Source: Patescibacteria group bacterium
GTDB taxonomy: Bacteria; Patescibacteriota; Minisyncoccia; Phycocordibacterales; JAGLPS01
DNA length: 64,000 nt
Direction of reading: 5' to 3'
Assembly: GCA_038057845.1 (NCBI GenBank)
Contig: JBBUCK010000041.1
Location: forward strand, 1,042 to 65,041
Each line of letters opens with the position of its first letter. Position 1 is the first letter of the stretch. The notes under the pieces are model-generated. The model saw only the letters and a program-made list of their open reading frames with translations. It did no database searches and was not told the origin of the DNA. Below are positions 1,481-63,463 of this stretch, in pieces. Made by a program: the position numbers and the translations under genes.

Positions 1481-1672
1481 TGGATGTCTTGCCCGCCTAA
1501 GTTTTGCTTCGCAAAATTTTAGCGGGTGAAGGATGCGGCAAATACTTACACAAAAGAAGCACTTCTTCCTAATTAGGCTGGATGCCTTGCCCACCTAAGT
1601 TTTGCTTCGCAAAATTTAGGCGGGTGGAGGACATTGTGAACACATACACAAGAGAGGCACTTGAAGTGCAGT
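1444..1672. repeat. tandem imperfect repeat (~95 bp x ~2.5) that re-copies the last ~35 nt of the upstream CDS; each unit carries a hairpin (1491-1528, 1589-1627) with UUCG-type loop
   Basis: aatacttatactgaagatgctttacttcctaatta...gcccgcctaagttttgcttcgcaaaattttagcggg repeated as cggcaaatacttacacaaaagaagcacttcttcctaattag...gcccacctaagttttgcttcgcaaaatttaggcggg, then a third partial copy. Confidence 0.6.
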
Positions 1673-1738: not shown

Positions 1739-3643
1739 ATGCACGATGAAAATAAAATCGTATATTTCGCCGAGACCGATTCTCGCGGAAAGAAGCAAAA
1801 ATTTGGCATAAAAACCAAAGACCGTTCCCGTCACGTCTATGTTATTGGAAAAACTGGAATGGGAAAATCAACCTTGCTTGAGAACATGGCTGTTCAAGAT
1901 ATTCAGAATGGCGAAGGTATGGCGTTTATTGACCCTCATGGCAAAACAGCTGAACTCCTCTTGGAATATGTGCCTGCATCTCGAATTCAAGATGTTATAT
2001 ATTTTGCCCCTTTTGATACTGACTTCCCTATTTCTTTTAATGTGATGGAAGATGTTGGAGCAGACAAACGCCATCTTGTTGCTAACGGTCTTATGAGCGC
2101 GTTTAAAAAAATCTGGGTGGATGCTTGGTCTGCCCGTATGGAATACATTTTGAATAATATTCTGCTCGCATTGCTCGAATATCCGGATTCAACACTTATC
2201 GGTGTCAACCGTATGCTTGCCGATAAGGATTATCGCAATAAGGTGGTTAACAATATTACCGACCCTTCCGTTAAAGCATTTTGGACTGATGAATTTGCCA
2301 AGTACGGTGACCGATACATGCAAGAAGCCGGTGCCGCCATTCAAAACAAGATTGGACAATTCATCGCGAACCCGCTTGTTCGAAATATCATCGGTCAACC
2401 GAAATCAACCTTTGATTTAAGAAAAGTTATAGACGAGCGAAAAATACTCATTATCAACCTCTCCAAAGGCCGTGTCGGGGAAGCAAATGCAAATCTTTTG
2501 GGAAGTATGTTGATTACCAAAATTTATCTCGGGGCAATGTCAAGAGCCGATACGAGCGAAAAGGAGCTGAATAAACTCCCGCCATTCTATCTTTTTGTTG
2601 ACGAGTTTCAATCTTTTGCCAATGAATCGTTTGCCGATATTCTTTCCGAGGCGCGGAAATATAAGCTCAATCTCACGATGGCGCATCAGTATATAGAGCA
2701 AATGTCCGAGGAGGTGCGCGCGGCTGTTTTTGGCAACGTTGGAACAATGATTATGTTTCGCGTTGGCGCGTATGACGCGGAAGTGCTGGAAAAGGAATTC
2801 GCTCCGGAGTTTACCGCCGAAGATCTGGTAAATTTGGGATTTACTCAAATTTATCTCAAACTTATGATTGATGGTGTCACATCTCATCCATTTTCCGCGA
2901 CATCGCTTCCTCCGATTGAAACTCCTACTATGTCTTCCAAAGATCAAATTATTGAATCTTCTCGAAAAATCTATGCTCGTTCACGCGCTGTTATTGAGGA
3001 ATATATCAGGGATTGGCATGCGCCCATCAAAAAAGAGGAGAAAAGGAGTAATGAGGAGCGGCCGTTTTCTTCACAGAAAGAGATTGTAAAAAACCATCCT
3101 AAGCCCTTTGTGCCGGCGACCCCTTTACCGACCACACAGAATCCTTTCAAGGCAATTGCTTTTGATGAAACAGGGAAGGCGGTGGTCGAAGTAGCGGTGA
3201 AAAAAGCCGCCGAAGGCCCGCATCTTGCGAGGCTCGCCTTCGGCGGCCCGCTTCGCCAGAGCGGTAGCGAGGCGAGCAAGCCTCCCGCAGAGGACGAGAC
3301 TCGCTTCAAGCAGCGCTCTTACGAGCGGGAAGAAAAACCAATTACTGCTCCTCAGGTCTCTCAAACACCAGTCTCTCTTAAAAATCTTAGAGTTGATGAT
3401 CCTAAGAAAAGGAGGGAACAAAAAGGTCCAAGTGAGAAAAATCTCTCGGAACTCAAAGCTGCTCTTGCAGATGTTTTACAATCACACGGTGGAAGTAAAA
3501 AAGAGGAGTCTCTAGAACCAAAGCAGGAAGTGAAAAAAGAAGAGCTTGTAGAAAAAAAGGAAACTTTAGTTTCAAATACTCTAAATAATCCTAAGGAAAT
3601 CTCCGAATCAACACTCAAAAAAATCTTAGAGGTTCCCAAGTAA
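1739..3643 (+). CDS. TraD/TraG/VirD4-like (TrwB/DUF87-type) coupling-protein ATPase with ~200-aa disordered K/E/P-rich C-terminal tail
   Basis: Walker A VIGKTGMGKST, FIDPHGK, Walker B LFVDEFQSF, HQY motif; C-terminal low-complexity region. Confidence 0.55.
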   Translation: MHDENKIVYFAETDSRGKKQKFGIKTKDRSRHVYVIGKTGMGKSTLLENMAVQDIQNGEGMAFIDPHGKTAELLLEYVPASRIQDVIYFAPFDTDFPISFNVMEDVGADKRHLVANGLMSAFKKIWVDAWSARMEYILNNILLALLEYPDSTLIGVNRMLADKDYRNKVVNNITDPSVKAFWTDEFAKYGDRYMQEAGAAIQNKIGQFIANPLVRNIIGQPKSTFDLRKVIDERKILIINLSKGRVGEANANLLGSMLITKIYLGAMSRADTSEKELNKLPPFYLFVDEFQSFANESFADILSEARKYKLNLTMAHQYIEQMSEEVRAAVFGNVGTMIMFRVGAYDAEVLEKEFAPEFTAEDLVNLGFTQIYLKLMIDGVTSHPFSATSLPPIETPTMSSKDQIIESSRKIYARSRAVIEEYIRDWHAPIKKEEKRSNEERPFSSQKEIVKNHPKPFVPATPLPTTQNPFKAIAFDETGKAVVEVAVKKAAEGPHLARLAFGGPLRQSGSEASKPPAEDETRFKQRSYEREEKPITAPQVSQTPVSLKNLRVDDPKKRREQKGPSEKNLSELKAALADVLQSHGGSKKEESLEPKQEVKKEELVEKKETLVSNTLNNPKEISESTLKKILEVPK

Positions 3644-3673
3644 AAATGTTACACGTAGATAAATATTTTTTAA

Positions 3674-5206
3674 ATGAGGTTTCTTAGTAAACTTTTTATT
3701 TCGACGAGCGAGTGGCGCCGTGGCCACGTTTTGATGCGGACATGGCACGCGAGTCGAAGTCTAAACAAAGGCTTAATGGCCTTTATATTTTTTGTTCCTG
3801 TAACTTTTTTCACAACCGTCTCTGCGGCGGTTGTTATCGACGAAATCATGTACGACCTTGACGGCTCGGATACAGATAGGGAATGGGTAGAAATTTTAAA
3901 TGATGGAAACGGGGCAATAGACCTTACCGGCTTCAAATTCGATGATGGAGCAACCTCAAAACATGGTCTGAATGCCCCACCAAAAAACGGCGGTCAAGGC
4001 TCTCTCGTGATTCCGGGTGGCTCATATGCCATCTTTGCGGATAATGCCGCAGTCTTTCTCTCCGAACATCCGGGCTACACGGGGACAGTCATTGATACAC
4101 TCGTTGATTTGGCCAACACAAGTGACACCGTCTCACTTATTGATAGTAATGATAACGTTCTCGAGACGGTAACTTATGACTCGACATGGGGAGCAAAAGA
4201 TGACGGCAATTCGCTCCAGAAGATTAACGGCTTATGGAAGAGCGCTCTTCCCACTCCAGGGACTGTCAGTGTCTCTCCGTTCGCACCAACCACCGACCCC
4301 TCTCCACAGGAGACTCCTCCTGCAAATACTTCAAGCACAACCAGCACCTCTTCGAGTAGCACAGGGAGCAGTTCATCATTTCCTGTAGAACCGCAGATTA
4401 TCGCTTCGGCGGGGGAGAAAAAACGAATTGCAACTGTTGGAGGAAACATTATATTTTCTGGAAAAGTATGGGGTCTTAAAAAAGAGCCGATTGAAAACGC
4501 CCGTATTTTATGGAATTTTGGCGATGGAAGCACGGCGGAAGGGAAAACAGTGTCTCATACGTACCGCTACCCTGGTATATACATCGTCACACTTAACGCT
4601 TCGTCAGGACAATATTCGGCTTCTGATCGAGTAACTGTTGAGGCCATTCCGGCGAATATAATCATTTCTTCGGTTGGAGATTCGCAGTCTTTGCTTGTTG
4701 AACTGCATAATCAATCACATTACGAACTCGACCTCTCTTTTTGGAGTATTCATGCTCCCGATGTTACATTCATTATTCCGGAGTATACATTTGTTGGAGC
4801 GGGAGCAAAAATTAAATTTGCAGGTGAAGTGACTGGTATCACTTCTAACACGTTGGCAGATGTCTTGCTTTATTATCCCAATGGCATGCCTGCATCGGCA
4901 TCTCTCGCCATTGTTTCTGTTCAAGAAGAAATAGTGCAAAAATCTTCACTCGCATCCTCTGTTAGAAAAGAGGAAACAAAGAAGGAAGAATACATTTTAC
5001 CTCCAAAATCTGCTAATATGGCGCCTAACGCTTTCGGGGTCCTTGGAACAACAAGCGAAATTTTGGCGGCAGCGGAAACAGCAAAAGGGAGCGCATTTTC
5101 ACCTTGGATTTCCGGTCTTCTGGCTCTTATCGGCATTCCTCTTATTTCACTTTTTTTCTTACCTAAAAAACAAAAAACGGAAGCGGATGAGATAGAAATT
5201 ATTTAG
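3674..5206 (+). CDS. cell-surface protein: signal peptide, lamin-tail domain (LTD), S/T-rich linker, PKD-like domain, C-terminal TM anchor (probable true start near 3776, MAFIFF...)
   Basis: EIMYDLDGSDTDREWVEILN is the LTD signature; NFGDGSTAEGKTVSHTYRYPGIYIVTLNASS is PKD-like; C-terminal PWISGLLALIGIPLISLFFLPKK. Confidence 0.6.
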   Translation: MRFLSKLFISTSEWRRGHVLMRTWHASRSLNKGLMAFIFFVPVTFFTTVSAAVVIDEIMYDLDGSDTDREWVEILNDGNGAIDLTGFKFDDGATSKHGLNAPPKNGGQGSLVIPGGSYAIFADNAAVFLSEHPGYTGTVIDTLVDLANTSDTVSLIDSNDNVLETVTYDSTWGAKDDGNSLQKINGLWKSALPTPGTVSVSPFAPTTDPSPQETPPANTSSTTSTSSSSTGSSSSFPVEPQIIASAGEKKRIATVGGNIIFSGKVWGLKKEPIENARILWNFGDGSTAEGKTVSHTYRYPGIYIVTLNASSGQYSASDRVTVEAIPANIIISSVGDSQSLLVELHNQSHYELDLSFWSIHAPDVTFIIPEYTFVGAGAKIKFAGEVTGITSNTLADVLLYYPNGMPASASLAIVSVQEEIVQKSSLASSVRKEETKKEEYILPPKSANMAPNAFGVLGTTSEILAAAETAKGSAFSPWISGLLALIGIPLISLFFLPKKQKTEADEIEII

Positions 5207-9882: not shown

Positions 9883-9899
9883 AGGTATGGATCCCGATA

Positions 9900-10640
9900 G
9901 TGTTAACAGTTTTATTATGTTTATGTTGTTGTTTGTACTGTGCAGGAAGTATTAAAATGAGAGATAGCCATATTACCAAATTAAACACTATCGGGATGGA
10001 CGTAAAACAATTTGAAAATAAGAGGTGGCAAAGGGAAGATCAAGCGCTTCAATTTCGGCACAGAGCCGCGCTCTCCATGATTGATTCTGGGACGGTTCTT
10101 GACCTTGGTTCAGGCGACGGTTTGCTCCTTGCCCTCCTACGTCAAAAAGGCGTCATAGGGAGAGGCCTTGATTTAGCGGAAGAGGGTGTAAGGAAAGCGA
10201 ATGCCAAGGGTCTTGATACACAAGTTTTCGACTTTGGAAACGAAAGGCTTCCATTTCCAGATAACAGTTTTGACACAGTTGTAATGCTCGATATTCTGGA
10301 ACATCTCTATGATCCGGAATTTGTACTCGGAGAGGCAACACGAGTTTCAAAAAAGAATCTTATCGTCGGTGTACCAAACTTCAGCTCTCTTCCTGCAAGA
10401 CTCCAGGTTCTTTTTGGTTCTGTGCCTGAAAACAACAGCCCTAAAAAAGGACATGTCTATTGGTTTAATTACGGCATATTGGTTTCAATGCTTTCAAAAC
10501 ACGGGCTTATTGTTGATCAACTCAAATCAAATACATTTTTTGAGCACGTTCCGGTAGTTGGATTGATTACTCGCTTTTTTGCTACTCTTTTCCCAAATCT
10601 GTTCGGTCTTTCATTTGTTATTAAAGTAACAAAAGTTTAA
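9900..10640 (+). CDS. class I SAM-dependent methyltransferase (likely true start ~9957)
   Basis: VLDLGSGDGLL motif I, DTVVMLDILEHL. Confidence 0.75.
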   Translation: MLTVLLCLCCCLYCAGSIKMRDSHITKLNTIGMDVKQFENKRWQREDQALQFRHRAALSMIDSGTVLDLGSGDGLLLALLRQKGVIGRGLDLAEEGVRKANAKGLDTQVFDFGNERLPFPDNSFDTVVMLDILEHLYDPEFVLGEATRVSKKNLIVGVPNFSSLPARLQVLFGSVPENNSPKKGHVYWFNYGILVSMLSKHGLIVDQLKSNTFFEHVPVVGLITRFFATLFPNLFGLSFVIKVTKV

Positions 10641-30534: not shown

Positions 30535-30540
30535 ATATTA

Positions 30541-30650
30541 AAAGTCTATAAAGTTCATAAAGTTTGTAAAGTCTATAAAGTCCATGAGAGTCTTAAAGTT
30601 CATAAAGTCGAAAGTCTATAAAGTCTTTATAAAACCGGAAAGCAATCTAG
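30541..30650. repeat. array of ~9 (C/T)ATAAAGTC-type short repeats
   Basis: aaagtctataaagttcataaagtttgtaaagtctataaagtcc...cataaagtcgaaagtctataaagtct. Confidence 0.7.
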
Positions 30651-30960
30651 AAATTTCAATGCATAAATTATAATATTTTTCGTATTGTTCTTTACTTATG
30701 TATTTAAGGTCTAAAGCTAGATATAACATTGACCTAATTTCTCCGCACGAACCTTTGGCAACAAATAAAAAATGTTTTAATTCCTTATCACCCCTTCTTT
30801 CAAAGCCCTCGGCAATATTATTCATTATCGATACGGATGCTCTTTGTATTTGATCCCTAAAACCAAAATCTTCACTGCCCTTAAATGTTTTATAAATAGA
30901 TAATGTTAATTCCATTGCTTTCTGCCAAGCTATAATATCTTCAAATTTTTCTATTTTCAT
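30616..30960 (-). CDS. four-helix-bundle protein (PF05635; '23S rRNA intervening-sequence protein'/Avd-like), copy A
   Basis: MKIEKFEDIIAW...IMNNIAEGFERRGDKE...KGSCGEIRSMLYLA; 86% identical to copy at 35728-36072. Confidence 0.8.
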   Translation of the reverse strand: MKIEKFEDIIAWQKAMELTLSIYKTFKGSEDFGFRDQIQRASVSIMNNIAEGFERRGDKELKHFLFVAKGSCGEIRSMLYLALDLKYISKEQYEKYYNLCIEISRLLSGFIKTL

Positions 30961-31003
30961 AAGACTTTTGACTTTAAAGACTTTACGGACATTTGACTTA
31001 TAG
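30961..31003. repeat. inverted-orientation GACTTT(A/T) repeat array upstream of 4HB copy A
   Basis: aagacttttgactttaaagactttacggacatttgactta. Confidence 0.65.
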
Positions 31004-35704: not shown

Positions 35705-35742
35705 AAAGTTTGTAAAGTCATTAAAGTCTATAAAGTCTTGAT
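35701..35742. repeat. ATAAAGTC-type repeat array downstream of 4HB copy B
   Basis: ccataaagtttgtaaagtcattaaagtctataaagtcttg. Confidence 0.65.
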
Positions 35743-36072
35743 AAATCCCGAAAGCAACCTTGAGATTTCAACAGATAAATTATAATACTTTTCGTATTCT
35801 TCTTTATTTATATATTCAAGACTTAGAGCCAAATATAACATTGACCTAACTTCTCCACATGACCCCTTCGCAATAAATAAGAAATGTTTGAATTCTTTAT
35901 CACCTCTCCTTTCAAACCCCTCGGCAATATTATTCATTATTGACACAGACGCTCTTTGTATTTGGTCTCTAAATCCAAAATCTTTACTACTTATGAACGC
36001 TTTATAAATAAGTAGCGTTAATTCTTTTGCCTTTTCCCATGCTATGATATCTTCAAATTTTTCTATTTTCAT
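35728..36072 (-). CDS. four-helix-bundle protein (PF05635/Avd-like), copy B, located between wzm and wzt
   Basis: 98/114 aa identical to copy A; ~60 bp of 3' flank and 5' flank also conserved between copies. Confidence 0.8.
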   Translation of the reverse strand: MKIEKFEDIIAWEKAKELTLLIYKAFISSKDFGFRDQIQRASVSIMNNIAEGFERRGDKEFKHFLFIAKGSCGEVRSMLYLALSLEYINKEEYEKYYNLSVEISRLLSGFIKTL

Positions 36073-36117
36073 ATAACTTTTGACTTTACGGACTTTATAG
36101 ACCTTTGACTTTTTACT
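36073..36117. repeat. inverted-orientation GACTTT(A/T) repeat array upstream of 4HB copy B
   Basis: ataacttttgactttacggactttatagacctttgacttttt. Confidence 0.65.
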
Positions 36118-36984: not shown

Positions 36985-37090
36985 ACTATTATAATGCTCT
37001 ATAGATTTCGTACGGGATTCTATGTTTGTTATCATAATAAAACAAAATAGCAAGAAGTGTCAATAGGTATCAAAAGGTATCACCAGATTA
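36985..37090. repeat. ~100-bp intergenic repeat shared with 43550-43660 (the right flank of the 43.4-kb structured element), lacking the GC-rich core
   Basis: tttcgtacgggattctatgtttgttatcataataaaacaaaatagcaagaagtgtcaatagg vs tttcgtaaacttctaacgggattccatatgtagtatcataataaggcaagatagcaagaagtgtcaacagg. Confidence 0.55.
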
Positions 37091-40845: not shown

Positions 40846-43062
40846 TTATTCGCTATTTTTACTCTCGTGTTCCAAATCTGCCATTACCATAAGCTTTGCC
40901 AATTCCTTAAATGTGACGTTTGGCTTCCAGCCGAGTTTATTTTTTGCTTTTGAGTAGTCTCCTAAAAGTATATCAACTTCTGCTGGTCTAAAATATTTCA
41001 GGTCAACTTCAATAATAGTTTTACCTGTCTTTCTATCAATACCTTTTTCATTGAGACCTTTGCCTTTCCAGACAATGTCCATATCAAGATATTTTGCCGT
41101 TTCCTCAATAAATTCCCGAACAGTGTGCGTTTCGTTTGTCGCGAGAATGAAATCATCGGGGTTTTTGTGCTGGAGAATAAGCCACATACCATAGACAAAA
41201 TCTTTCGCGTAACCCCAGTCTCGCTTCGCGTCCAAATTACCCAAGTAGAGTTTCTTCTCCTTGCCTAATTGTATACGTGAAAGCCCTCGAGTTATTTTTC
41301 GTGTAACGAATGTTTCGCCGCGGCGGGGGGAATTATGCACGCGTGCTTTTCCAATTCCACAATGGAATTCTCCCGAAGAAGTTTCTAAATCGTAAAACCA
41401 ACCATCGTACTTCTGGATTTCCAAAATTTTTTTCACTTCAGAAGGCTCTTTCTTGAGATGGTGCGTGTCGCATGCAAAACCACCATGTTGGATTTTTCTT
41501 ATAAATGTACGCGAGATCCCCGTTATGTGCGCCATTTCTCTTTGTGATACTCCAGTGCCCACGAGTTGTCTTATAGATTGTTCCTTGAATACATTATTTG
41601 TGGTGGTGAGAATATTCAGTGAATAAAATATTCTGCCATCGTCTTTTGTCTCTACAGTGAGGTTAATATTTTGTTGTGTGGTTTTGTCGATAAGATACCA
41701 CAATCCCATGGCTAATGTGGGGGAATTCGTCTTGAAGTTCTTGAATTCATAAGTGCAGGGGTTTGCTTTCAAGCCGTCACATACATTATAGCCGCGCAAG
41801 AACGCAAGCATGACATGCGAAGGGGCGTTCAAAATAACTTTTGGCACGCGCTTAGTCTTATCTTTGTTATAGATATCGATACTGCGTAGCCAATTATTGC
41901 CACCAGCTAGTTGTAGCTGTCCTACGATATTTTTCTGATTAAAACCTGAACGGGAAGGATAGTATAGTGTGTGACCGCCAGTAACCTTTTTCCATAACAT
42001 ATCGAAATGTTGTCGTAATAGTGGATCCGAGTTTGTGAACTTAGCATGGACACCGATGCCTTTGGTGGCGTATGTGGCGGAACCGTCACCTACCATCATA
42101 CCCATAAGCTCCGCCTCTTCTTCGGAATTGGGTAATTGGCGACTTTGCGTATCTGGTTTAGGAAGATCAATGGAGTCAATACAGTCTCCGATTGCAATGT
42201 TCCCAGTTTCTTTTTCTTCTCCCCCTTTCATAAATACAACATGACTGGAAGTTGCCATGAATGCACCAGATCGTGCATTGATAAAGCGCGGATGTTTATT
42301 CTCCCTTTCAGTATCGTGCGGATAGGCGGAAGCAAATGTCACATCAACCCATCCCTGTTTGCTCCATACTTGCACCCCCGAAACTTCTTTTGATTGATAA
42401 TGCTTAAGAGATTCGTTGAATGTTACTATTTCTCGAATTGGTTTTATGTTAAATTCATTCGAACCGGTTTCTTTGCAAAACATAGGCATAAAAGATGACA
42501 CTGTCTCGTGATTGAATAAAATTCCGTTTGAAGCAAACATCCCATACGCTTCTCGATAGTTTTTTGTTATCCAATAGGCGTAAAGTTTAGCCACGCCGTA
42601 CGGTGAGCGAGGGTGGAAAGGAGTTTTTTCTGTTAACGGTAATTCAACCGTCTTACCGAACATCTCAGAGGATGAGGCTTGGTAAAACTTAGTTTTAGTT
42701 AGTCCGGTTTCGCGCATTGCGTCCAGAAGGCGAAGTGTACCAAGTCCTGTGACATCCCCAGTGTATTCCGGCATATCAAAGCTAACACGTACATGGCTCT
42801 GCGCACCTAAATGATAGATTTCATTAGGTTTAATTTCACTTAAAATACGGTTAAGATTACTCCCATCAGACAGATCTCCATAATGGAGAAATAATTTGAT
42901 GTTGTTTATATGGGGATCTTTATAGAGATGGTCAATCCTATCAGTATTAAACGTACTTGCTCGTCTGATAATGCCATGAACTTCATATCCTTTTTCAAGA
43001 AGGAGTTCAGCCAAATAAGACCCGTCCTGTCCGGTGATGCCTGTAATAAGAGCTTTTTTCAT
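40846..43062 (-). CDS. gmd: GDP-mannose 4,6-dehydratase interrupted by a ~391-aa intein (precursor 738 aa)
   Basis: N-extein [22 protein letters not shown]...ILFNHE and C-extein [16 protein letters not shown] match the conserved Gmd NHESPRRG region split by an insertion. Confidence 0.85.
41332..42504 (-). mobile_element. intein with LAGLIDADG homing-endonuclease domain inserted in gmd
   Basis: block B ATSSHVV (TxxH); two LAGLIDADG motifs [10 protein letters not shown] and [12 protein letters not shown]; block [25 protein letters not shown] ending HN + Ser(+1); N-terminal boundary uncertain (residue after NHE is Thr; a Cys lies 9 aa downstream). Confidence 0.7.
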
Positions 43063-43170
43063 AAAGTTTATAAAGTCGAAAGTCTATAAAGTCCTTAAAG
43101 CCATAAAGTTCCTGAAGCTCAAAAGCGGTAGTGGTGTACTTTACGAACTTTTAACTTTCAGACTTTTGAC
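43063..43170. repeat. bipartite inverted array: ATAAAGT(C/T) repeats (43063-43115) then GACTTT-type repeats (43135-43170) around a short central spacer, immediately upstream of gmd
   Basis: cataaagtttataaagtcgaaagtctataaagtccttaaagccataaagttcc...ctttacgaacttttaactttcagacttttgacta. Confidence 0.65.
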
Positions 43171-43178
43171 TATTTTTC

Positions 43179-43427
43179 CTACCATTTATTAATTTTAGTA
43201 ACAACTTTTTTCTTAATCGTCAAGTAGGAGTTTGTTGCCGCTTTTTCCATGTTAGGCGAAATAAGACGAAGAATTTCTTTTCCCAAAATTCGGTATTGAC
43301 CGCCAACTTTGTTTGCTCTAATAAGCCCCTTTTTAAGAAAGCGTTTTATAGTGCTCTCGCTTACCTTCAGAAATTGTTGTGTTTCCAAGGAGGTATATAC
43401 AGCATTTGGTTTTATCTCTTGTTCCAT
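43179..43427 (-). CDS. small helix-turn-helix DNA-binding protein, excisionase/MerR-like (HTH_17-type)
   Basis: VYTSLETQQFLKVSESTIKRFLKKGLIRANKVGGQYRI resembles excisionase-family HTH. Confidence 0.5.
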   Translation of the reverse strand: MEQEIKPNAVYTSLETQQFLKVSESTIKRFLKKGLIRANKVGGQYRILGKEILRLISPNMEKAATNSYLTIKKKVVTKINKW

Positions 43428-43578
43428 CCCGTTAGAAGTTTATGTTTATAATAATTTTGCGCAGTGCGTCTGCCGAATAGGCAGTTCCCGTTATGGGCGA
43501 AGCGCTGCGCCCCGAAAGGGATGGAGCTATTCGCTCCTCGCGCTTCGCGTAGTTACTGTTTCGTAAACTTCTAACGGG
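43428..43578. ncRNA. GC-rich, multi-hairpin structured element closed by 15-bp perfect terminal inverted repeats (candidate ncRNA / 5' leader / MITE-like element)
   Basis: cccgttagaagtttA...TAAACTTCTAACGGG outer stem; inner hairpins GUCUGCC-GAAUA-GGCAG, GCGAAGCGC...GCGCUUCGC (9 bp) enclosing CCC-GAAA-GGG and GGAGC-UAUU-CGCUCC; abuts the start codon of the HTH gene. Confidence 0.4.
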
Positions 43579-43770
43579 ATTCCATATGTAGTATCATAAT
43601 AAGGCAAGATAGCAAGAAGTGTCAACAGGCTTCAACACACACCATCTATTTCTGTCAGATTCTATTCGACCAAATGATACTATGTTCAATTTTTCATATT
43701 GCTTGACTAGAGTTGCTACTTTTTTCCAAAATTAATGGGTATCTTTTAATTCGTCTGCTATAATTGCCCA

Positions 43771-45936
43771 ATGACTAATATGTATGCAATTTTAAAATAT
43801 ATTATTTACACGGGTCTTTTTGCCGCTCTTTTTCTACCGTTTTATATTGATGGAACAATGTTCTTTCCTTTTATAACAGGAAAAGGCTTTGCTTTTAGAA
43901 TTATTGTTGAAATTATTACTTTCGCATGGATTATCCTCTTTCTACAAGACAAAACATATCGACCAAAATTCTCATGGATAGTTGTCACGTTTGCCGCATT
44001 CGCTCTTTCCTTAGGTGTTTCCACTATTCTTTCTGAAAATCCTTACAAAAGTTTTTGGAGCAATTTCGAAAGAATGGAAGGGTTTATAACCGTTCTTCAT
44101 CTTTTCGCGTATTTTCTTGTAGCAGGTGTGATGTTGTCGACTCAAAAACTTTGGACGCGGTTTTTCAATACGTCTCTCATTGCAAGTTTTGGTATTGCTC
44201 TATACAGCTTCGCTCAACTTGCTGGAAAAATTCCCATTAATCAGGGGGGGGTGCGTGTGGATGCGACATTCGGTAATGCAACATATCTGGCGATTTATCT
44301 TGTTTTTCATATTTTTCTCGCACTCTTCCTCCTTCTTCGTAGAGATAATAAGCTCTATCGATTAGCCTATGGTTCGTTAGCTTTTGTCCATATGTTTCTT
44401 CTCTATGAGACACAAACTCGAGGTGCGATACTGGGTTTTTTGGGAGGATTTTTTATTACCGCAATACTCATTGCTCTGACGGAAAAAGAAAATACACATC
44501 TTCGTAAGATATCCTGGGGAATTATCGGCGGTATCATTCTTCTTATCATCGGATTTATTTCGGTCAAAGAAACTTCATTTGTTCGAAATAATTCCACACT
44601 TGTGCGTTTTGCGGAAATTTCATTAACAAAAGACCAAGCGAGGACCTATGTATGGCCAATGGCCATTAAAGGGTTTGTGGAACGGCCGGTCTTCGGATGG
44701 GGACAGGAAAGTTTTAATTACGTCTTCAATAAATACTACGACCCGCGTATGTACAATCATGAGCAATGGTTTGACCGTACGCACAATGTTATTCTCGACT
44801 GGCTTGTCGCGGGCGGAATATTGGGTCTCTCGCTCTATCTTCTCCTATTTATTTTCGGTTTAAGATATCTATGGAAAACGGACAATCTCTCTTCCGTGGA
44901 AAAAAGTGTTCTCACCGGTCTTTTTGCTGCCTATTTTTTCCACAATCTTTTCGTGTTTGATAATCTGATAAGTTATCTTCTCTTCTTTTCTCTCCTTGCC
45001 TATATCCATTCATCTTCCGGAAAAGAGTGGAAAATTTCCACGTTTGACATAAGTTTACGCGTTCAACAAATTGTTTCCGCCTTGGTTATTGCCGCGTTTC
45101 TGTTTATTTTATACACAGCGAACATTATTCCGATAAAGGCGAACAAAAAACTTATTGAAGCGATTTCTCCCCGGCAAGACGGAAATATTTCCCTTAATCT
45201 CGAAGCCTTTAAGAAGGCGCTCTCTTATCATTCTTTTGGCGATGCCGAAACGCGAGAACAACTTGCTCAGATAACAAATAATATGGTAAAAGCTCCTTCT
45301 GTTTCAAATGAATTGAAAATTCAGTTTGCTGAACTTTCCATGTCGGAATTGCAAAAACAACTTACGTTAACGCCCGAAGATACTAGATATCAAATATTCG
45401 CCGCTGTTTCCGCAAATGGGTTCGGTAATTACGAGCAAGGTCTCATCTACGCCCTTCAAACGGTAAAAAGCTCTCCGAGAAAACAGACGGCTTACTTTGA
45501 GTTGGGAACCTCATATATAGGAAAAAGGGATTATGAAAACGCGCTTGAGACGTTTAAAAAAGCATACGAATTAGAACCAAGCTTTCAAGACGCGAAAATC
45601 GCCTATACCGTAGGGGCGATATATGCTGGTAAAAAAGATCTCGAGAGGGAGCTCCTCTCTACGCTTCCGGAACAGATTGTATACTTTGACGACCGTCTTT
45701 TTCGGGCCTATGTAGCGAGAGGAGAATACTCGCGTGTTCTTGAAATTCTTGCCAAAAGAATCGAAATCGAACCGGGAAATTCAAGTCATCGCCTTTCCCT
45801 CGCGGCAGTATATCTTGAACTTGGAAAGCGCTCGCAGGCAGTAAAAGAGATTGAGGAAATTATTAAAATCAATCCGGAATTCAAAGAACAAGGGGAGTTC
45901 TATATAAAGGAAATACGGGCGGGGAGAAATCCTTAG
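43771..45936 (+). CDS. O-antigen ligase/polymerase (Wzy_C/RfaL-like, ~10 TM) fused to C-terminal TPR repeats
   Basis: polytopic N-terminal ~400 aa with large periplasmic loop; C-terminal TPR-like repeats (…YENALETFKKAYELEP…). Confidence 0.7.
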   Translation: MTNMYAILKYIIYTGLFAALFLPFYIDGTMFFPFITGKGFAFRIIVEIITFAWIILFLQDKTYRPKFSWIVVTFAAFALSLGVSTILSENPYKSFWSNFERMEGFITVLHLFAYFLVAGVMLSTQKLWTRFFNTSLIASFGIALYSFAQLAGKIPINQGGVRVDATFGNATYLAIYLVFHIFLALFLLLRRDNKLYRLAYGSLAFVHMFLLYETQTRGAILGFLGGFFITAILIALTEKENTHLRKISWGIIGGIILLIIGFISVKETSFVRNNSTLVRFAEISLTKDQARTYVWPMAIKGFVERPVFGWGQESFNYVFNKYYDPRMYNHEQWFDRTHNVILDWLVAGGILGLSLYLLLFIFGLRYLWKTDNLSSVEKSVLTGLFAAYFFHNLFVFDNLISYLLFFSLLAYIHSSSGKEWKISTFDISLRVQQIVSALVIAAFLFILYTANIIPIKANKKLIEAISPRQDGNISLNLEAFKKALSYHSFGDAETREQLAQITNNMVKAPSVSNELKIQFAELSMSELQKQLTLTPEDTRYQIFAAVSANGFGNYEQGLIYALQTVKSSPRKQTAYFELGTSYIGKRDYENALETFKKAYELEPSFQDAKIAYTVGAIYAGKKDLERELLSTLPEQIVYFDDRLFRAYVARGEYSRVLEILAKRIEIEPGNSSHRLSLAAVYLELGKRSQAVKEIEEIIKINPEFKEQGEFYIKEIRAGRNP

Positions 45937-60930: not shown

Positions 60931-61656
60931 ATGGAGAGAAAGTTCAAATTTTCACTGGGAGAATATTATCACATTTACAACAGGGGAAATGATAAGAGGT
61001 TAATTTTTCTGGATGATCACGACAGTAGACGATTCGTCCTGTTGCTGTATCTTTGTAATAGTATGGAGCCATTAGACATGCGTACTTATTTCAACGAAGG
61101 GCGGTCCTTCGTTGATCTGTTTAGTATTGCTAGAAAGAGAACATTTGTTGATATTGGTGCCTATTGCTTAATGCCAAACCATTTTCATATTCTTGTTAAA
61201 GAAAAGATTGAAAACGGTATAACAAAATTTATCGGTAAATTATTGACTGCATATTCAATGTACTTCAATAAAAGACAACAAAGAACTGGTTCTTTGTTTG
61301 AAGGAAGATTTAAAGCCAGACATGTTGATAGTGATGAATATCTTAAATATCTATTTTCTTATATACACTTAAATCCGATTAAACTTATTGATAAAGAGTG
61401 GAGGGAGAACAATATTCCAGATAGAATCAAGGCGCATAAATATCTTCAAGAATATCCTTATTCAAGCCATCTTGACTACCACCAAATCATCGTAAGGAAA
61501 GAAACAGTGATCTTAAACAAAAGCGCTTTTCCGGAGTATTTTTTACAACCAAAAGAATTCGATGCTTTTATTAGTGACTGGCTTTCTATAAAAGAATCGT
61601 TTTTACAAACAGATCTAACAAGTAAAAAAACGAAGGACCGCCCTTCGTTTGTGTGA
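60931..61656 (+). CDS. HUH Y1 tyrosine transposase, RayT/IS200-like (PF01797)
   Basis: HIYNRGNDK, YCLMPNHFHILVKE (HuH), YLFSYIHLNPIK (catalytic Tyr region). Confidence 0.75.
   Translation: MERKFKFSLGEYYHIYNRGNDKRLIFLDDHDSRRFVLLLYLCNSMEPLDMRTYFNEGRSFVDLFSIARKRTFVDIGAYCLMPNHFHILVKEKIENGITKFIGKLLTAYSMYFNKRQQRTGSLFEGRFKARHVDSDEYLKYLFSYIHLNPIKLIDKEWRENNIPDRIKAHKYLQEYPYSSHLDYHQIIVRKETVILNKSAFPEYFLQPKEFDAFISDWLSIKESFLQTDLTSKKTKDRPSFV
61093..61114. repeat. internal copy of REP-like hairpin (same orientation as 5' copy) inside the transposase CDS
   Basis: caacgaagggcggtccttcgttg. Confidence 0.5.
61630..61649. repeat. REP-like hairpin in inverted orientation (loop ACCGC) overlapping transposase stop
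   Basis: acgaaggaccgcccttcgtt = reverse complement of the 5' copy. Confidence 0.55.
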
Positions 61657-63102: not shown

Positions 63103-63141
63103 AGGTTTGGAAAAGTCATCTCGGGTACCCGAGATGACTTT
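63103..63141 (+). terminator. strong intrinsic terminator (14-bp stem AAAGTCATCTCGGG-ta-CCCGAGATGACTTT + GTTTT)
   Basis: seen directly after gatB. Confidence 0.75.
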
Positions 63142-63463
63142 GTTTTAAGACATATTTTACTCTTAATCTTCTATACTTAATAAAAGGCAGCCTGTTTGTC
63201 GACAGGTAGGCTTGCTACAGGGATTAAGGTGTAATGAAAACTTTTCCTAAACCCTGCACTCTTCAGAAAGAGCTAAGGGGGTATTTGGCTACCGAAAAAA
63301 GGAAATTAAGACACTCTACAGCAAACCATGCCGAGTACAAAAGGGTTTCATTAACCTTAACACTTTTGATCTTTTACTCACCCGAGATGACCTTTATTAT
63401 CAACACTTTTATTTGTATATCTGTTTCATCTCTTTTTCTAAAGAGATATACTTTAAGTAATGT

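What the first reader, a model, noticed from the sequence alone, without database searches (positions are those of the whole stretch)
43428..43578. GC-rich multi-hairpin element with perfect 15-bp terminal inverted repeats, abutting an excisionase-like HTH gene
In an AT-rich intergenic region there is a ~150-nt block with an outer 15-bp stem (CCCGTTAGAAGTTTA/TAAACTTCTAACGGG). Inside are a GAAUA-loop hairpin, a 9-bp GCGAAGCGC/GCGCUUCGC helix, and two apical hairpins (GAAA and UAUU loops). A second locus (36985-37090) repeats the right terminus plus ~70 bp of flank but lacks the GC-rich core. This looks like the 'before insertion' state, so the core may be a small mobile insertion (MITE-like) or a structured RNA acquired at one copy. 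It starts 1 nt from the ATG of the HTH gene, so it could also be a cis-regulatory leader.
Basis: seen in the sequence. Interest (0 to 1): 0.65.

Follow-up and report, generated by a model that had tools for sequence, protein, structure and literature searches.

The report
Small mobile DNA hairpin element (MITE)
The GC-rich hairpin block is a 153-bp non-coding transposon that landed exactly on the start codon of a conserved regulator gene in a Patescibacteria (candidate phyla radiation, CPR) genome, and it belongs to a large, apparently undescribed family of such elements that sit at gene boundaries in groundwater ultra-small bacteria.

Summary
There is a perfect 17-bp inverted repeat (43426-43442 / 43564-43580) around a GC-rich core, and the fold z-score is about -8 on both strands.

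It is not a conserved leader RNA. 80 orthologous HTH loci and three close relatives (85-90% nt identity in the flanking genes) lack it precisely. No Rfam family matches.

It is a miniature inverted-repeat transposable element (MITE), 43427-43579, flanked by a 5-bp target-site duplication (TTCCA). Its terminal base supplies the A of the HTH gene's ATG.

A metagenome scan for the termini found at least 120 contigs, giving 188 unique elements. The shared architecture is YNNR | Y-CCCGTTAGAAG(T)...CTTCTAACGGG-R | YNNR. An exact 4-bp duplication flanks 102/188 elements. Inner sequences are mostly unrelated, and nested and tandem copies occur.

Insertions sit at stop and start codons of housekeeping genes. 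A second filled/empty pair and a second related element in the window (9892-9996) confirm mobility. The GC-rich core recurs in two unrelated loci with compensatory hairpin changes.

The "second locus" is a paralogous promoter copy, not an empty site. The transposase is unknown; CCC ends plus a 4-5-bp duplication point to an IS1380/piggyBac-like enzyme. This is a new MITE family, of moderate interest.

The parts
43427..43579 (.). The element itself: a 153-bp non-autonomous transposon (MITE) with T...A termini
   Evidence: It is bounded by the terminal inverted repeats and a 5-bp direct repeat. It is precisely absent in the orthologous loci L083-L085.
43427..43439 (+). Left terminal inverted repeat, TCCCGTTAGAAGT (family consensus YCCCGTTAGAAGT)
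   Evidence: Consensus derived from 189 unique elements. In this copy the perfect complementarity runs 43426-43442.
43567..43579 (-). Right terminal inverted repeat, TCCCGTTAGAAGT read on the - strand
43422..43426 (.). Target-site duplication, copy 1 (TTCCA on +, TGGAA on -). It supplies the TG of the HTH start codon.
   Evidence: flagged TSD5.
43580..43584 (.). Target-site duplication, copy 2 (TTCCA on +). Together with A43585 it forms the original promoter-proximal ATG.
43459..43549 (.). GC-rich core. It contains two 5-bp hairpins with complementary loops (GAATA / TATTC), a central CCC...GGG / GGGCG...CGCCC stem, and GCGMAGYGCG repeats.
   Evidence: It is about 90% conserved in L106 (3684-3834) and L183 (6478-6627), while the AT-rich linkers diverge. 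There are two compensatory pairs in each 5-bp hairpin.
43571..43585 (-). Mini-ORF left at the old start: ATG GAA TCC CGT TAG. It ends at the TAG inside the terminal repeat.
   Evidence: Read directly from the sequence. Translation of it is inferred, not shown.
43596..43625 (-). Sigma-70-type promoter (TTGACA-18-TATTAT, 11/12) with degenerate TTGACAC operator repeats. It is the native near-leaderless promoter of the HTH gene, now about 158 bp from the ORF.
   Evidence: Orthologous promoters show TTGACAC(C)NNN repeats, then TATAAT, then 6-8 nt, then ATG in most of the 80 loci.
43179..43427 (-). 82-aa HTH_17 (excisionase/MerR-like) gene whose start codon was hit; the ORF is intact
   Evidence: Pfam PF12728, E = 5.6e-9. 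70-80% identical proteins occur across Patescibacteria.
37010..37090 (-). Paralogous copy of the same promoter/operator, plus TAGAA and TCCCGTACGAAA (9/12 of the terminal repeat), upstream of wzm. It is not an empty site.
9892..9996 (.). Second, related element in the window. Its terminal repeat is TCCCGATAGTGTT / AACACTATCGGGA and its 4-bp duplication TGGA lies at 9888-9891 and 9997-10000. It also sits exactly on a start codon (ATG 9996-9998).
   Evidence: (ATCCCGNTAG: 4 hits against 0.24 expected).

Best explanation
The feature is a non-autonomous DNA transposon (MITE) of a previously unreported family, carried here by a Patescibacteria (CPR) genome.

SHOWN:
- It is a discrete 153-bp insertion (43427-43579).
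- It has 13-bp family-type terminal inverted repeats (YCCCGTTAGAAGT; 17 bp perfect in this copy).
- It is flanked by a 5-bp target-site duplication (TGGAA on the gene strand).
- It landed on the start codon of a normally leaderless or near-leaderless HTH_17 gene. The duplicated TG plus the element's terminal A rebuild an ATG, so the ORF is intact.
- The native promoter now lies about 158 bp upstream. It is followed by a leftover ATG-GAA-TCC-CGT-TAG mini-ORF and a very stable hairpin.

INFERRED:
- The element was inserted by a DDE-type transposase supplied in trans that makes 4-5-nt staggered cuts at YNNR targets (preferred TGAA/TTCA and TTGA/TCAA).
- The CCC...GGG ends and the 4-5-bp duplication suggest an IS1380/piggyBac-like enzyme.
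- Copies survive mainly where the duplication preserves function, that is at stop codons, start codons and -35 boxes. This is why they sit exactly at gene boundaries in these compact genomes that lack Shine-Dalgarno (ribosome-binding) sequences.
- In this locus the insertion most likely changes HTH expression rather than abolishing it.
- The GC-rich core is cargo of one subfamily whose hairpins are under structural selection as ssDNA or RNA. Its role is unknown.
For: Empty sites:
- Three relatives share collinear Wzy_C and HTH genes at 85-90% nt identity. They lack the block precisely and read ...ATATGGA-TA-TGGAGCAAGAG.
- None of 80 orthologous HTH loci has it.

Family:
- Of 188 unique paired elements, 182 have complementary terminal Y..R bases.
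- 102 are flanked by an exact 4-nt direct repeat, against 15 or fewer in out-of-register controls.
- All 102 duplications are YNNR, which makes up 23.5% of background 4-mers.
- There are nested and tandem copies and several subfamilies.

Second filled/empty pair:
- L206/L163 read ATGAA-T[CCCG..CGGG]A-TGAA. The orthologues L208, L209 and L210 have no element.

Same genome and same core:
- A second related element in the same window has a TGGA duplication on another ATG.
- The same core occurs in two unrelated contexts, murA-like (L106) and yraN/nusA (L183).

Gene-boundary placement:
- 38 of 255 element ends carry the ATG/GTG of an ORF of 100 codons or more exactly at the boundary. Frame 0 has 51 such ORFs, against 13 and 21 in the other frames.
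- Inbound genes stop in the duplication or at the TAG inside the terminal repeat in 35 cases.

Other:
- There is no orientation bias relative to genes.
- No Rfam match.
- The features fit the published MITE definition (PMC11602168).
Against: - No autonomous element or transposase with these termini was found in 1.2 Mb of fetched DNA, so the enzyme is unknown.
- Only two elements occur in the 64-kb window, and none in 386 kb from 80 other CPR genomes. High copy number in this particular genome is therefore not shown.
- The inner sequences of most family members are unrelated, which is unusual for a classical MITE family.
- TTAA, the canonical piggyBac target, is absent among 102 duplications.
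- T..A termini are over-represented at ATG sites, and termini differ within the core subfamily. A simple 'termini belong to the element' model does not explain this.
- Nothing here measures expression of the HTH gene.
Confidence: 0.85

Rival explanations
1. It is a dedicated structured RNA: a cis-regulatory 5' leader or riboswitch of the HTH gene, or a small RNA gene. It would be transcribed from the upstream promoter and act through its multi-hairpin fold.
For: - The fold is very stable.
- It lies between a strong promoter and the ATG.
- Both 5-bp hairpins have compensatory changes in L183.
- Two loop substitutions in L106 (GAAUA to GAGUA, UAUUC to UGUUC) keep loop-loop pairing, as G.U, only on the strand co-directional with the downstream gene.
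- All three core copies have the same orientation relative to the downstream gene.
Against: - It is absent from 80 orthologous loci and from three close relatives.
- The other two copies sit next to unrelated genes.
- It has target-site duplications and transposon-type termini.
- No Rfam hit appears even at E <= 10.
- Both strands fold about equally well.
- Only three sequences are available, so the covariation evidence is thin.
- A six-frame peptide search found no further copies.
Confidence: 0.1
2. It is an invertible promoter segment (inverton). A site-specific recombinase would flip the repeat-flanked 120-bp segment to switch expression between the divergent polysaccharide genes (HTH-gmd-fcl... 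versus Wzy_C).
For: - A repeat-flanked ~150-bp segment lies between divergent surface-polysaccharide genes.
- A weak promoter-like site lies inside it (TCGGCA-17-TATTAT).
- Conserved repeats around unrelated inner sequences would fit one invertase acting on many sites.
Against: - Flanking direct repeats in 102/188 elements are not produced by inversion.
- Most family members sit inside housekeeping operons at stop/start codons.
- There are nested and tandem copies.
- Three independent assemblies show the same orientation.
- The element is wholly absent in relatives.
Confidence: 0.03
3. It is a REPIN-like doublet (two inverted REP units forming a hairpin) mobilised by the IS200-like Y1 (RAYT-type) transposase encoded at 60931-61656.
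For: - A Y1_Tnp gene lies in the same window.
- CPR relatives of it are flanked by their own REP hairpins (L120).
- REPINs are also two inverted conserved ends around a variable spacer.
Against: - Y1/HUH transposition does not make target-site duplications, and these elements have them.
- The terminal arm is not itself a palindrome.
- The window's Y1 gene is not flanked by the motif.
- The L120 homologues are flanked by different hairpin sequences.
- Only one of 120 carrier loci encodes a homologue.
Confidence: 0.02

Closest known systems
Bacterial MITEs of the Correia/CREE (Neisseria), ERIC, RUP and MITEAba12 type
   Same: - Length of about 100-160 bp, no coding capacity, terminal inverted repeats and target-site duplication.
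- Located in intergenic regions next to genes.
- Co-transcribed as long hairpins that can alter expression of the neighbouring gene (PMC2649163, PMC10969869, PMC11602168).
   Different: - Different terminal sequence (YCCCGTTAGAAGT) and a 4-5-bp YNNR duplication instead of TA.
- Found in Patescibacteria.
- One terminal repeat is shared by many subfamilies with unrelated inner sequences, down to ~27-bp minimal forms.
- A large fraction sit exactly on stop or start codons, with the terminal purine rebuilding ATG/GTG.
IS1380 family / piggyBac superfamily DDE(D) transposons
   Same: - 4-bp (IS1380: 4-5-bp, from my own knowledge) duplications.
- Terminal repeats that begin with CCC and end with GGG.
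- T-rich/A-rich tetranucleotide targets. Variant piggyBac duplications TAAA, TCAA and TATG are also seen here (PMC10813416).
- piggyBac is paired with IS1380-like elements in prokaryotes (PMC5718144).
   Different: - No transposase of this type was found or tested.
- TTAA itself is never the duplication here (0/102).
- One extra Y/R base lies between the duplication and CCCG.
- The relatives carry a footprint-like TGGA-TA-TGGA rather than a seamless site.
REP/REPIN elements with RAYT transposases
   Same: Short hairpin-forming intergenic repeats with conserved inverted ends and a variable spacer. A RAYT-like gene is present in the window.
   Different: These elements have target-site duplications and non-palindromic terminal arms, and they are not associated with the RAYT gene.
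Rickettsia palindromic elements (RPEs)
   Same: Small palindromic mobile elements in reduced genomes whose surviving insertions are those compatible with gene function (PMC10969869).
   Different: RPEs insert in frame inside ORFs and are translated. These elements sit at ORF boundaries and conserve stop and start codons.

Membership tests
MITE (non-autonomous class II element) | Terminal inverted repeats of at least 10-15 bp | tested here: met
   17-bp perfect repeat in the window. The 13-nt family consensus YCCCGTTAGAAGT comes from 189 elements.
MITE (non-autonomous class II element) | Target-site duplication of 2-10 bp flanking the element | tested here: met
   5-bp TTCCA in the window. An exact 4-bp repeat flanks 102/188 family members, against 15 or fewer out of register.
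MITE (non-autonomous class II element) | Small (about 50-800 bp) and without a transposase gene | tested here: met
   153 bp. Only spurious overlapping ORFs are present. Family sizes range from 20 to 360 bp.
MITE (non-autonomous class II element) | Multiple dispersed copies and presence/absence polymorphism at orthologous sites | tested here: met
   At least 120 contigs. The core recurs in three unrelated loci. There are two filled/empty pairs. Within the window's own genome only two related elements are seen in 64 kb.
MITE (non-autonomous class II element) | A cognate autonomous IS with the same terminal repeats | tested here: inconclusive
   None was found among terminal-repeat pairs 0.4-5 kb apart in 1.2 Mb of fetched loci.
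IS1380 / piggyBac-type element | 4-bp (4-5-bp) duplication and terminal repeats starting with CCC | tested here: met
   Family features are taken from PMC10813416 and from my own knowledge of IS1380.
IS1380 / piggyBac-type element | TTAA as the preferred target (piggyBac) | tested here: not met
   0 of 102 duplications are TTAA. The preferred targets are TGAA/TTCA and TTGA/TCAA.
IS1380 / piggyBac-type element | Mobilised by a DDE(D) transposase of that family | not testable with these tools
   No candidate transposase was recovered.
REP/REPIN-RAYT | No target duplication; each unit is itself a short palindrome; the units flank the RAYT gene | tested here: not met
   Duplications are present. 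The terminal arm is not self-complementary. The Y1_Tnp gene at 60931-61656 is not flanked by the motif, and the L120 homologues are flanked by other hairpins.
Cis-regulatory leader / riboswitch / Rfam RNA family | Conserved upstream of orthologous genes, with a match to a curated model | tested here: not met
   Absent in 83 orthologous loci. No Rfam hit at gathering score or at E <= 10.
Invertible promoter (inverton) | Both orientations present in a population, and a cognate invertase | tested here: inconclusive
   Three assemblies show the same orientation. No reads are available and no invertase was looked for. The direct repeats argue against this reading.
Correia element (CREE) | 26-bp Correia terminal repeat, TA duplication, Neisseria host | tested here: not met
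   The terminal sequence, the duplication and the host all differ.

The most novel reading that the evidence does not exclude
The family may be more than a tolerated parasite. It may be adapted to, or co-opted by, compact genomes that lack Shine-Dalgarno sequences and use many leaderless mRNAs.

- Its termini are built so that an insertion keeps a stop codon (TGA/TAA in the duplication, or the TAG in the terminal repeat) at the 5' foot of the stem.
- The same insertion creates an ATG/GTG (terminal purine plus duplicated TG) at the 3' foot.
- The hairpin then places stop and start side by side. This would allow termination-reinitiation or ribosome shunting across the element. Alternatively, the stem foot could be cleaved to release a leaderless mRNA beginning at AUG.
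- In this window that would make the 4-codon mini-ORF plus hairpin a new translational control module for the HTH regulator.
Probability: 0.15. Interest if true: 0.8.

Novelty: new member of a known kind. Interest (0 to 1): 0.5.

Why it matters
- CPR/Patescibacteria genomes are usually described as small, streamlined and poor in mobile DNA. Here a single terminal repeat marks hundreds of small elements across CPR contigs of 29-55% GC, some at about one per 3-5 kb.
- I found no description of this family in the searchable literature.
- The family gives a marker for recent genome dynamics in uncultured lineages and a handle for finding the transposase.
- It is also a natural experiment on how genes are translated when a 12-17-bp stem abuts the start codon in organisms without Shine-Dalgarno sequences.
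- For this locus, it shows that a near-universal CPR regulator gene has been uncoupled from its autoregulated leaderless promoter.
- For annotation, such GC-rich hairpins should not be mistaken for ncRNA genes.

Tried and rejected
- Rfam at gathering threshold on the whole window, and at E <= 10 on 43100-43900: only chance hits.
- tRNA/tmRNA scan: none.
- BLAST of the element against 80 orthologous CPR loci: no copies.
- Viral contigs: no match to the termini pattern.
- Phage and plasmid collections: no match.
- Literature search for the terminal sequence, CPR MITEs and leaderless Patescibacteria: nothing relevant.
- Search for an autonomous copy, using terminal-repeat pairs 0.4-5 kb apart with matching duplication. 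It gave three chance-level pairs enclosing FabF, a Bro-N-like protein or other elements, and no transposase.
- RAYT/REP link: rejected.
- DNA-uptake-sequence idea (inverted pairs as in Neisseria): rejected. The 8-mer is at chance density in 386 kb of CPR DNA and the window holds only the element's own copies.
- 5-bp or 6-bp duplication models that would make the terminal Y/R part of the target: rejected. Only 24/102 elements satisfy both extra positions.
- Six-frame chimeric peptide query to find more core copies among called ORFs: no hit.
- Covariance model of the core over 706 kb: only the three known copies, plus weak stem-only matches.
- Orientation bias of subfamilies relative to genes: none.
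- Idea that the GC core is a nested second MITE: no terminal repeat or duplication of its own.

Full report
**1. The observation**

The block is there as described.
- The perfect inverted repeat is 17 bp: ATCCCGTTAGAAGTTTA at 43426-43442 and TAAACTTCTAACGGGAT at 43564-43580. It is the only perfect repeat of 15 bp or more with separated arms in the window.
- The 171-nt region folds to -78.1 kcal/mol on the + strand (z = -7.9) and -67.5 on the - strand (z = -7.1). No shuffle did as well.
- The region is GC-rich (about 0.5) against 0.31-0.37 in the flanks.
- Rfam gives nothing at gathering score for the whole window and only chance hits at E <= 10.

**2. Context**

The window comes from a Patescibacteria (CPR) MAG (names).
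- The element lies between divergent genes. On the + strand is a Wzy_C/TPR protein (43771-45936).
- On the - strand is an 82-aa HTH_17 gene (43179-43427), followed by gmd, fcl, rfbB/A/D, wzm and wzt.
- The two best sigma-70-type promoter matches in 7 kb are both on the - strand (TTGACA-18-TATTAT, 11/12), at 43625-43596 and 37063-37034.

**3. Orthologous loci**

The HTH protein is 70-80% identical across many CPR lineages. I fetched 80 orthologous loci.
- In nearly all of them the gene is preceded by two or three direct repeats TTGACAC(C)NNN at 11-nt spacing. A TATAAT-like box follows, and only 6-8 nt separate it from the ATG. This is a leaderless or near-leaderless, probably autoregulated, promoter.
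- None of the 80 loci has the GC-rich block.
- Three closer relatives (HTH 95-96% identical) are collinear with the window and have 85-90% nt identity in the flanking genes.
- They read ...TATTATAGTAATAAATATGGATATGGAGCAAGAG, with no element.
- The window reads ...TATTATGATACTACATA-TGGAA-[T CCCGTTAG...CTAACGGG A]-TGGAA-CAAGAG.
- So the block is a precise insertion of 153 bp (43427-43579) with a 5-bp target-site duplication. The A of the HTH ATG is the last base of the element.
- The relatives' A-TGGA-TA-TGGA-G equals 'duplication + T + A + duplication'. This looks like an excision footprint of a T...A-type element at the same site. That is an inference; an independent hexamer duplication cannot be excluded.

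**4. The family**

The same scan of viral contigs returned none.
- Most inner sequences are unrelated to the window's. What is shared is the termini.
- I paired the termini and obtained 188 unique elements, which show the architecture 5'-YNNR | Y-CCCGTTAGAAG(T) ... (A)CTTCTAACGGG-R | YNNR-3'.
- The terminal Y..R bases are complementary in 182/188 elements (C..G 132, T..A 50).
- An exact 4-nt direct repeat flanks 102/188, against 15 or fewer for out-of-register controls. A 5-nt version, as in the window, occurs in 11.
- All 102 duplications are YNNR, which is 23.5% of background 4-mers. TGAA/TTCA (29) and TTGA/TCAA (22) are about five-fold enriched. TTAA is never seen.
- Sizes run from about 20 to 360 bp. 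There are nested copies, tandem arrays sharing the 4-nt spacer (L193), and several subfamilies with multiple members.
- Subfamilies show no orientation bias relative to neighbouring genes.
- Carriers have 29-55% GC.
- The flanking gene of one 55%-GC carrier is most similar (65%) to a Candidatus Liptonbacteria protein.
- The 8-mer core is at chance density in 386 kb from 80 other CPR genomes, so the family is patchy.

**5. Independent confirmations of mobility**

- (a) L163/L206 carries an element as ATGAA-T[CCCG...CGGG]A-TGAA between a methyltransferase gene and a GT4 gene. The orthologous junctions in L208 and L209 are a 4-nt ATGA stop/start overlap, and L210 reads ...GATATGAAAATAGGG. None has an element.
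- (b) The window itself holds a second, related element at 9892-9996. Its terminal repeat is TCCCGATAGTGTT and its duplication is TGGA. It again sits exactly on a start codon.
- (c) The window's GC-rich core recurs, with the same termini, next to a murA-like gene (L106) and between yraN and nusA (L183).

**6. Position relative to genes**

Elements fill short intergenic gaps of housekeeping genes, including pyrH/rpsB/tsf, tpiA, murJ, nusA and fabF.
- Of 255 element ends, 85 are followed by an open frame of 100 codons or more. Of these, 51 are in the frame that starts at the first base after CGGG, against 13 and 21 in the other frames. 38 of the 51 begin ATG or GTG right there.
- Genes reading into an element end with their stop codon inside the duplication (23 cases) or at the TAG of the terminal repeat (12 cases).
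- The simplest reading combines target preference for TGAA/TTGA-type sites with purifying selection. In genomes this compact, the insertions that survive are those where the duplication and the terminal purine regenerate the stop codon, the start codon or the TTGAC -35 box.
- The window genome has almost no Shine-Dalgarno motifs (2 of 43 genes), so an insertion between 'ribosome-binding site' and ATG costs less than it would elsewhere.

**7. The core**

Window, L106 and L183 share about 90% identity over the core, while the AT-rich linkers between core and termini have diverged.
- RNAalifold gives the same four-hairpin architecture on either strand.
- There are two compensatory pairs in each of the two 5-bp hairpins and one in the extension of the outer stem.
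- The two hairpin loops are mutually complementary (GAAUA / UAUUC).
- In L106 they are GAGUA / UGUUC. These still pair, as G.U, only on the strand co-directional with the downstream gene.
- This is a weak hint of an RNA-level kissing interaction, resting on one sequence.
- No further copies were found. Strand and function remain open.

**8. The second locus**

The stretch 37010-37090 is a paralogous copy of the promoter/operator that now drives wzm.
- It is more similar to the window's HTH promoter than that promoter is to its own orthologues in the relatives.
- The similarity runs through TAGAA and TCCCGTACGAAA (9/12 of the terminal repeat) and then fades.
- It is best explained as duplication or gene conversion of promoter plus junction after the insertion, or as a decayed copy. 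It is not an empty site.

**9. Mechanism and consequences here**

Shown: the insertion, the duplication, the intact ORF and the displaced promoter.

Inferred:
- Transposition was carried out by a DDE enzyme acting in trans. CCC...GGG ends with a 4-5-bp duplication resemble IS1380/piggyBac (PMC10813416, PMC5718144, and my own knowledge for IS1380). No transposase was found, and TTAA is not used.
- Transcripts from the native promoter should begin at or near the old AUG. They would encode AUG-GAA-UCC-CGU-UAG and then form a 17-bp-closed hairpin whose 3' foot is the HTH AUG.
- Expression could continue from a weak internal promoter (TCGGCA-17-TATTAT), by reinitiation across the stem, or after processing. 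Alternatively it could be reduced, which would derepress promoters carrying the TTGACAC operators. None of this was testable.

**10. Comparison and novelty**

The element meets the published MITE criteria (PMC11602168) except for an identified autonomous partner.
- Architecturally it is closest to Correia, ERIC and RUP-type elements.
- It is not a member of any of these families, because the termini, the duplication and the host differ.
- The REPIN/RAYT, inverton, uptake-sequence and riboswitch readings were tested and not supported.
- I found no description of this terminal repeat or of CPR MITEs in the searchable literature.
- Verdict: a real feature and a new family of a known kind. The gene-boundary placement is interesting, and the open question is how the abutting genes are translated.

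Noticed in passing
window 9888-10000: A second element related to the one in the finding. Its terminal repeat is TCCCGATAGTGTT, its duplication is TGGA and its interior is AT-rich. It is inserted exactly on the ATG of a MetW-like methyltransferase gene inside a glycosyltransferase operon.
   Followed up: yes
window 1492-1624: Two tandem ~75-nt units, each with a hairpin CCCGCCTAAGTTTTGC-TTC-GCAAAATTT(T)AGCGGG, lie downstream of the gene ending at 1480. The covariance model matched them weakly (32.9 bits). They may be a distant relative of the family or an unrelated terminator-like repeat.
   Followed up: partly
window 63111-63395 and 60931-61656: A perfect 30-bp palindrome AAAGTCATCTCGGGT|ACCCGAGATGACTTT, plus a third arm 250 nt away, lies in the gap after gatB. 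It is 1.5 kb from a 241-aa IS200-like Y1_Tnp (RAYT-like) gene wedged between obg and gatB. This may be a REP/RAYT pair. In L120 two homologues are each flanked by their own REP-like hairpins.
   Followed up: partly
L003-L082 (about 90 nt upstream of position 2501) and window 43596-43650, 37034-37090: The 82-aa HTH_17 gene is among the most conserved small genes across Patescibacteria. It is almost always preceded by 2-3 direct repeats TTGACAC(C)NNN at 11-nt period overlapping the -35 box, with the ATG 6-8 nt after the -10 box. This suggests a leaderless, probably autoregulated gene. The same repeats precede wzm in the window.
   Followed up: partly
window, all gene starts: Only 2 of 43 genes have a Shine-Dalgarno-like motif. 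Several have TATAAT 6-8 nt before the ATG. Translation initiation in this genome therefore appears to be independent of Shine-Dalgarno sequences, or leaderless.
   Followed up: partly
window 43060-43125, 36073-36117, 35705-35727, 30961-30997, 30535-30560: Short tandem repeats of a ~9-10-nt unit (ATAAAGTC / GACTTTAT) fill the 30-70 nt just upstream of several genes of the polysaccharide cluster (gmd, both 23S_rRNA_IVP genes, wzt, asnB-like). Inverted copies flank the two IVP genes (I3 and I16). Their role is unknown.
   Followed up: no
window 40846-43062: The GDP-mannose 4,6-dehydratase ORF is 738 aa long. The Pfam GDP_Man_Dehyd match is split in two by a ~400-aa insert with a weak LAGLIDADG match, so it probably contains an intein.
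   Followed up: no
window 35728-36072 and 30616-30960: Two paralogous 114-aa '23S rRNA-intervening sequence protein' (four-helix bundle) genes are embedded in the polysaccharide/ABC-transporter cluster.
   Followed up: no
L083 3001 / L084 1219 / L085 2481 (start of the HTH gene): The close relatives carry ATGGATATGGAG, which is TGGA-TA-TGGA. This is exactly 'duplication + the two terminal bases of a T...A element + duplication', at the very site occupied in the window. It may be an excision footprint.
   Followed up: partly
L086-L205 (family census): T..A-type termini make up 27% of elements but account for 27 of the 38 start-codon-abutting ends. Termini also differ within the core subfamily (window and L106 are T..A at ATG sites; L183 is C..G at a TTGA site). 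In addition, TTAA is never the duplication. Neither point is explained.
   Followed up: partly
window 1739-5206: A VirD4/TraG-like coupling ATPase gene (634 aa) is followed by a lamin-tail/PKD-domain surface protein gene. This may be a remnant of a conjugative or type-IV-like DNA transfer module in a CPR genome.
   Followed up: no
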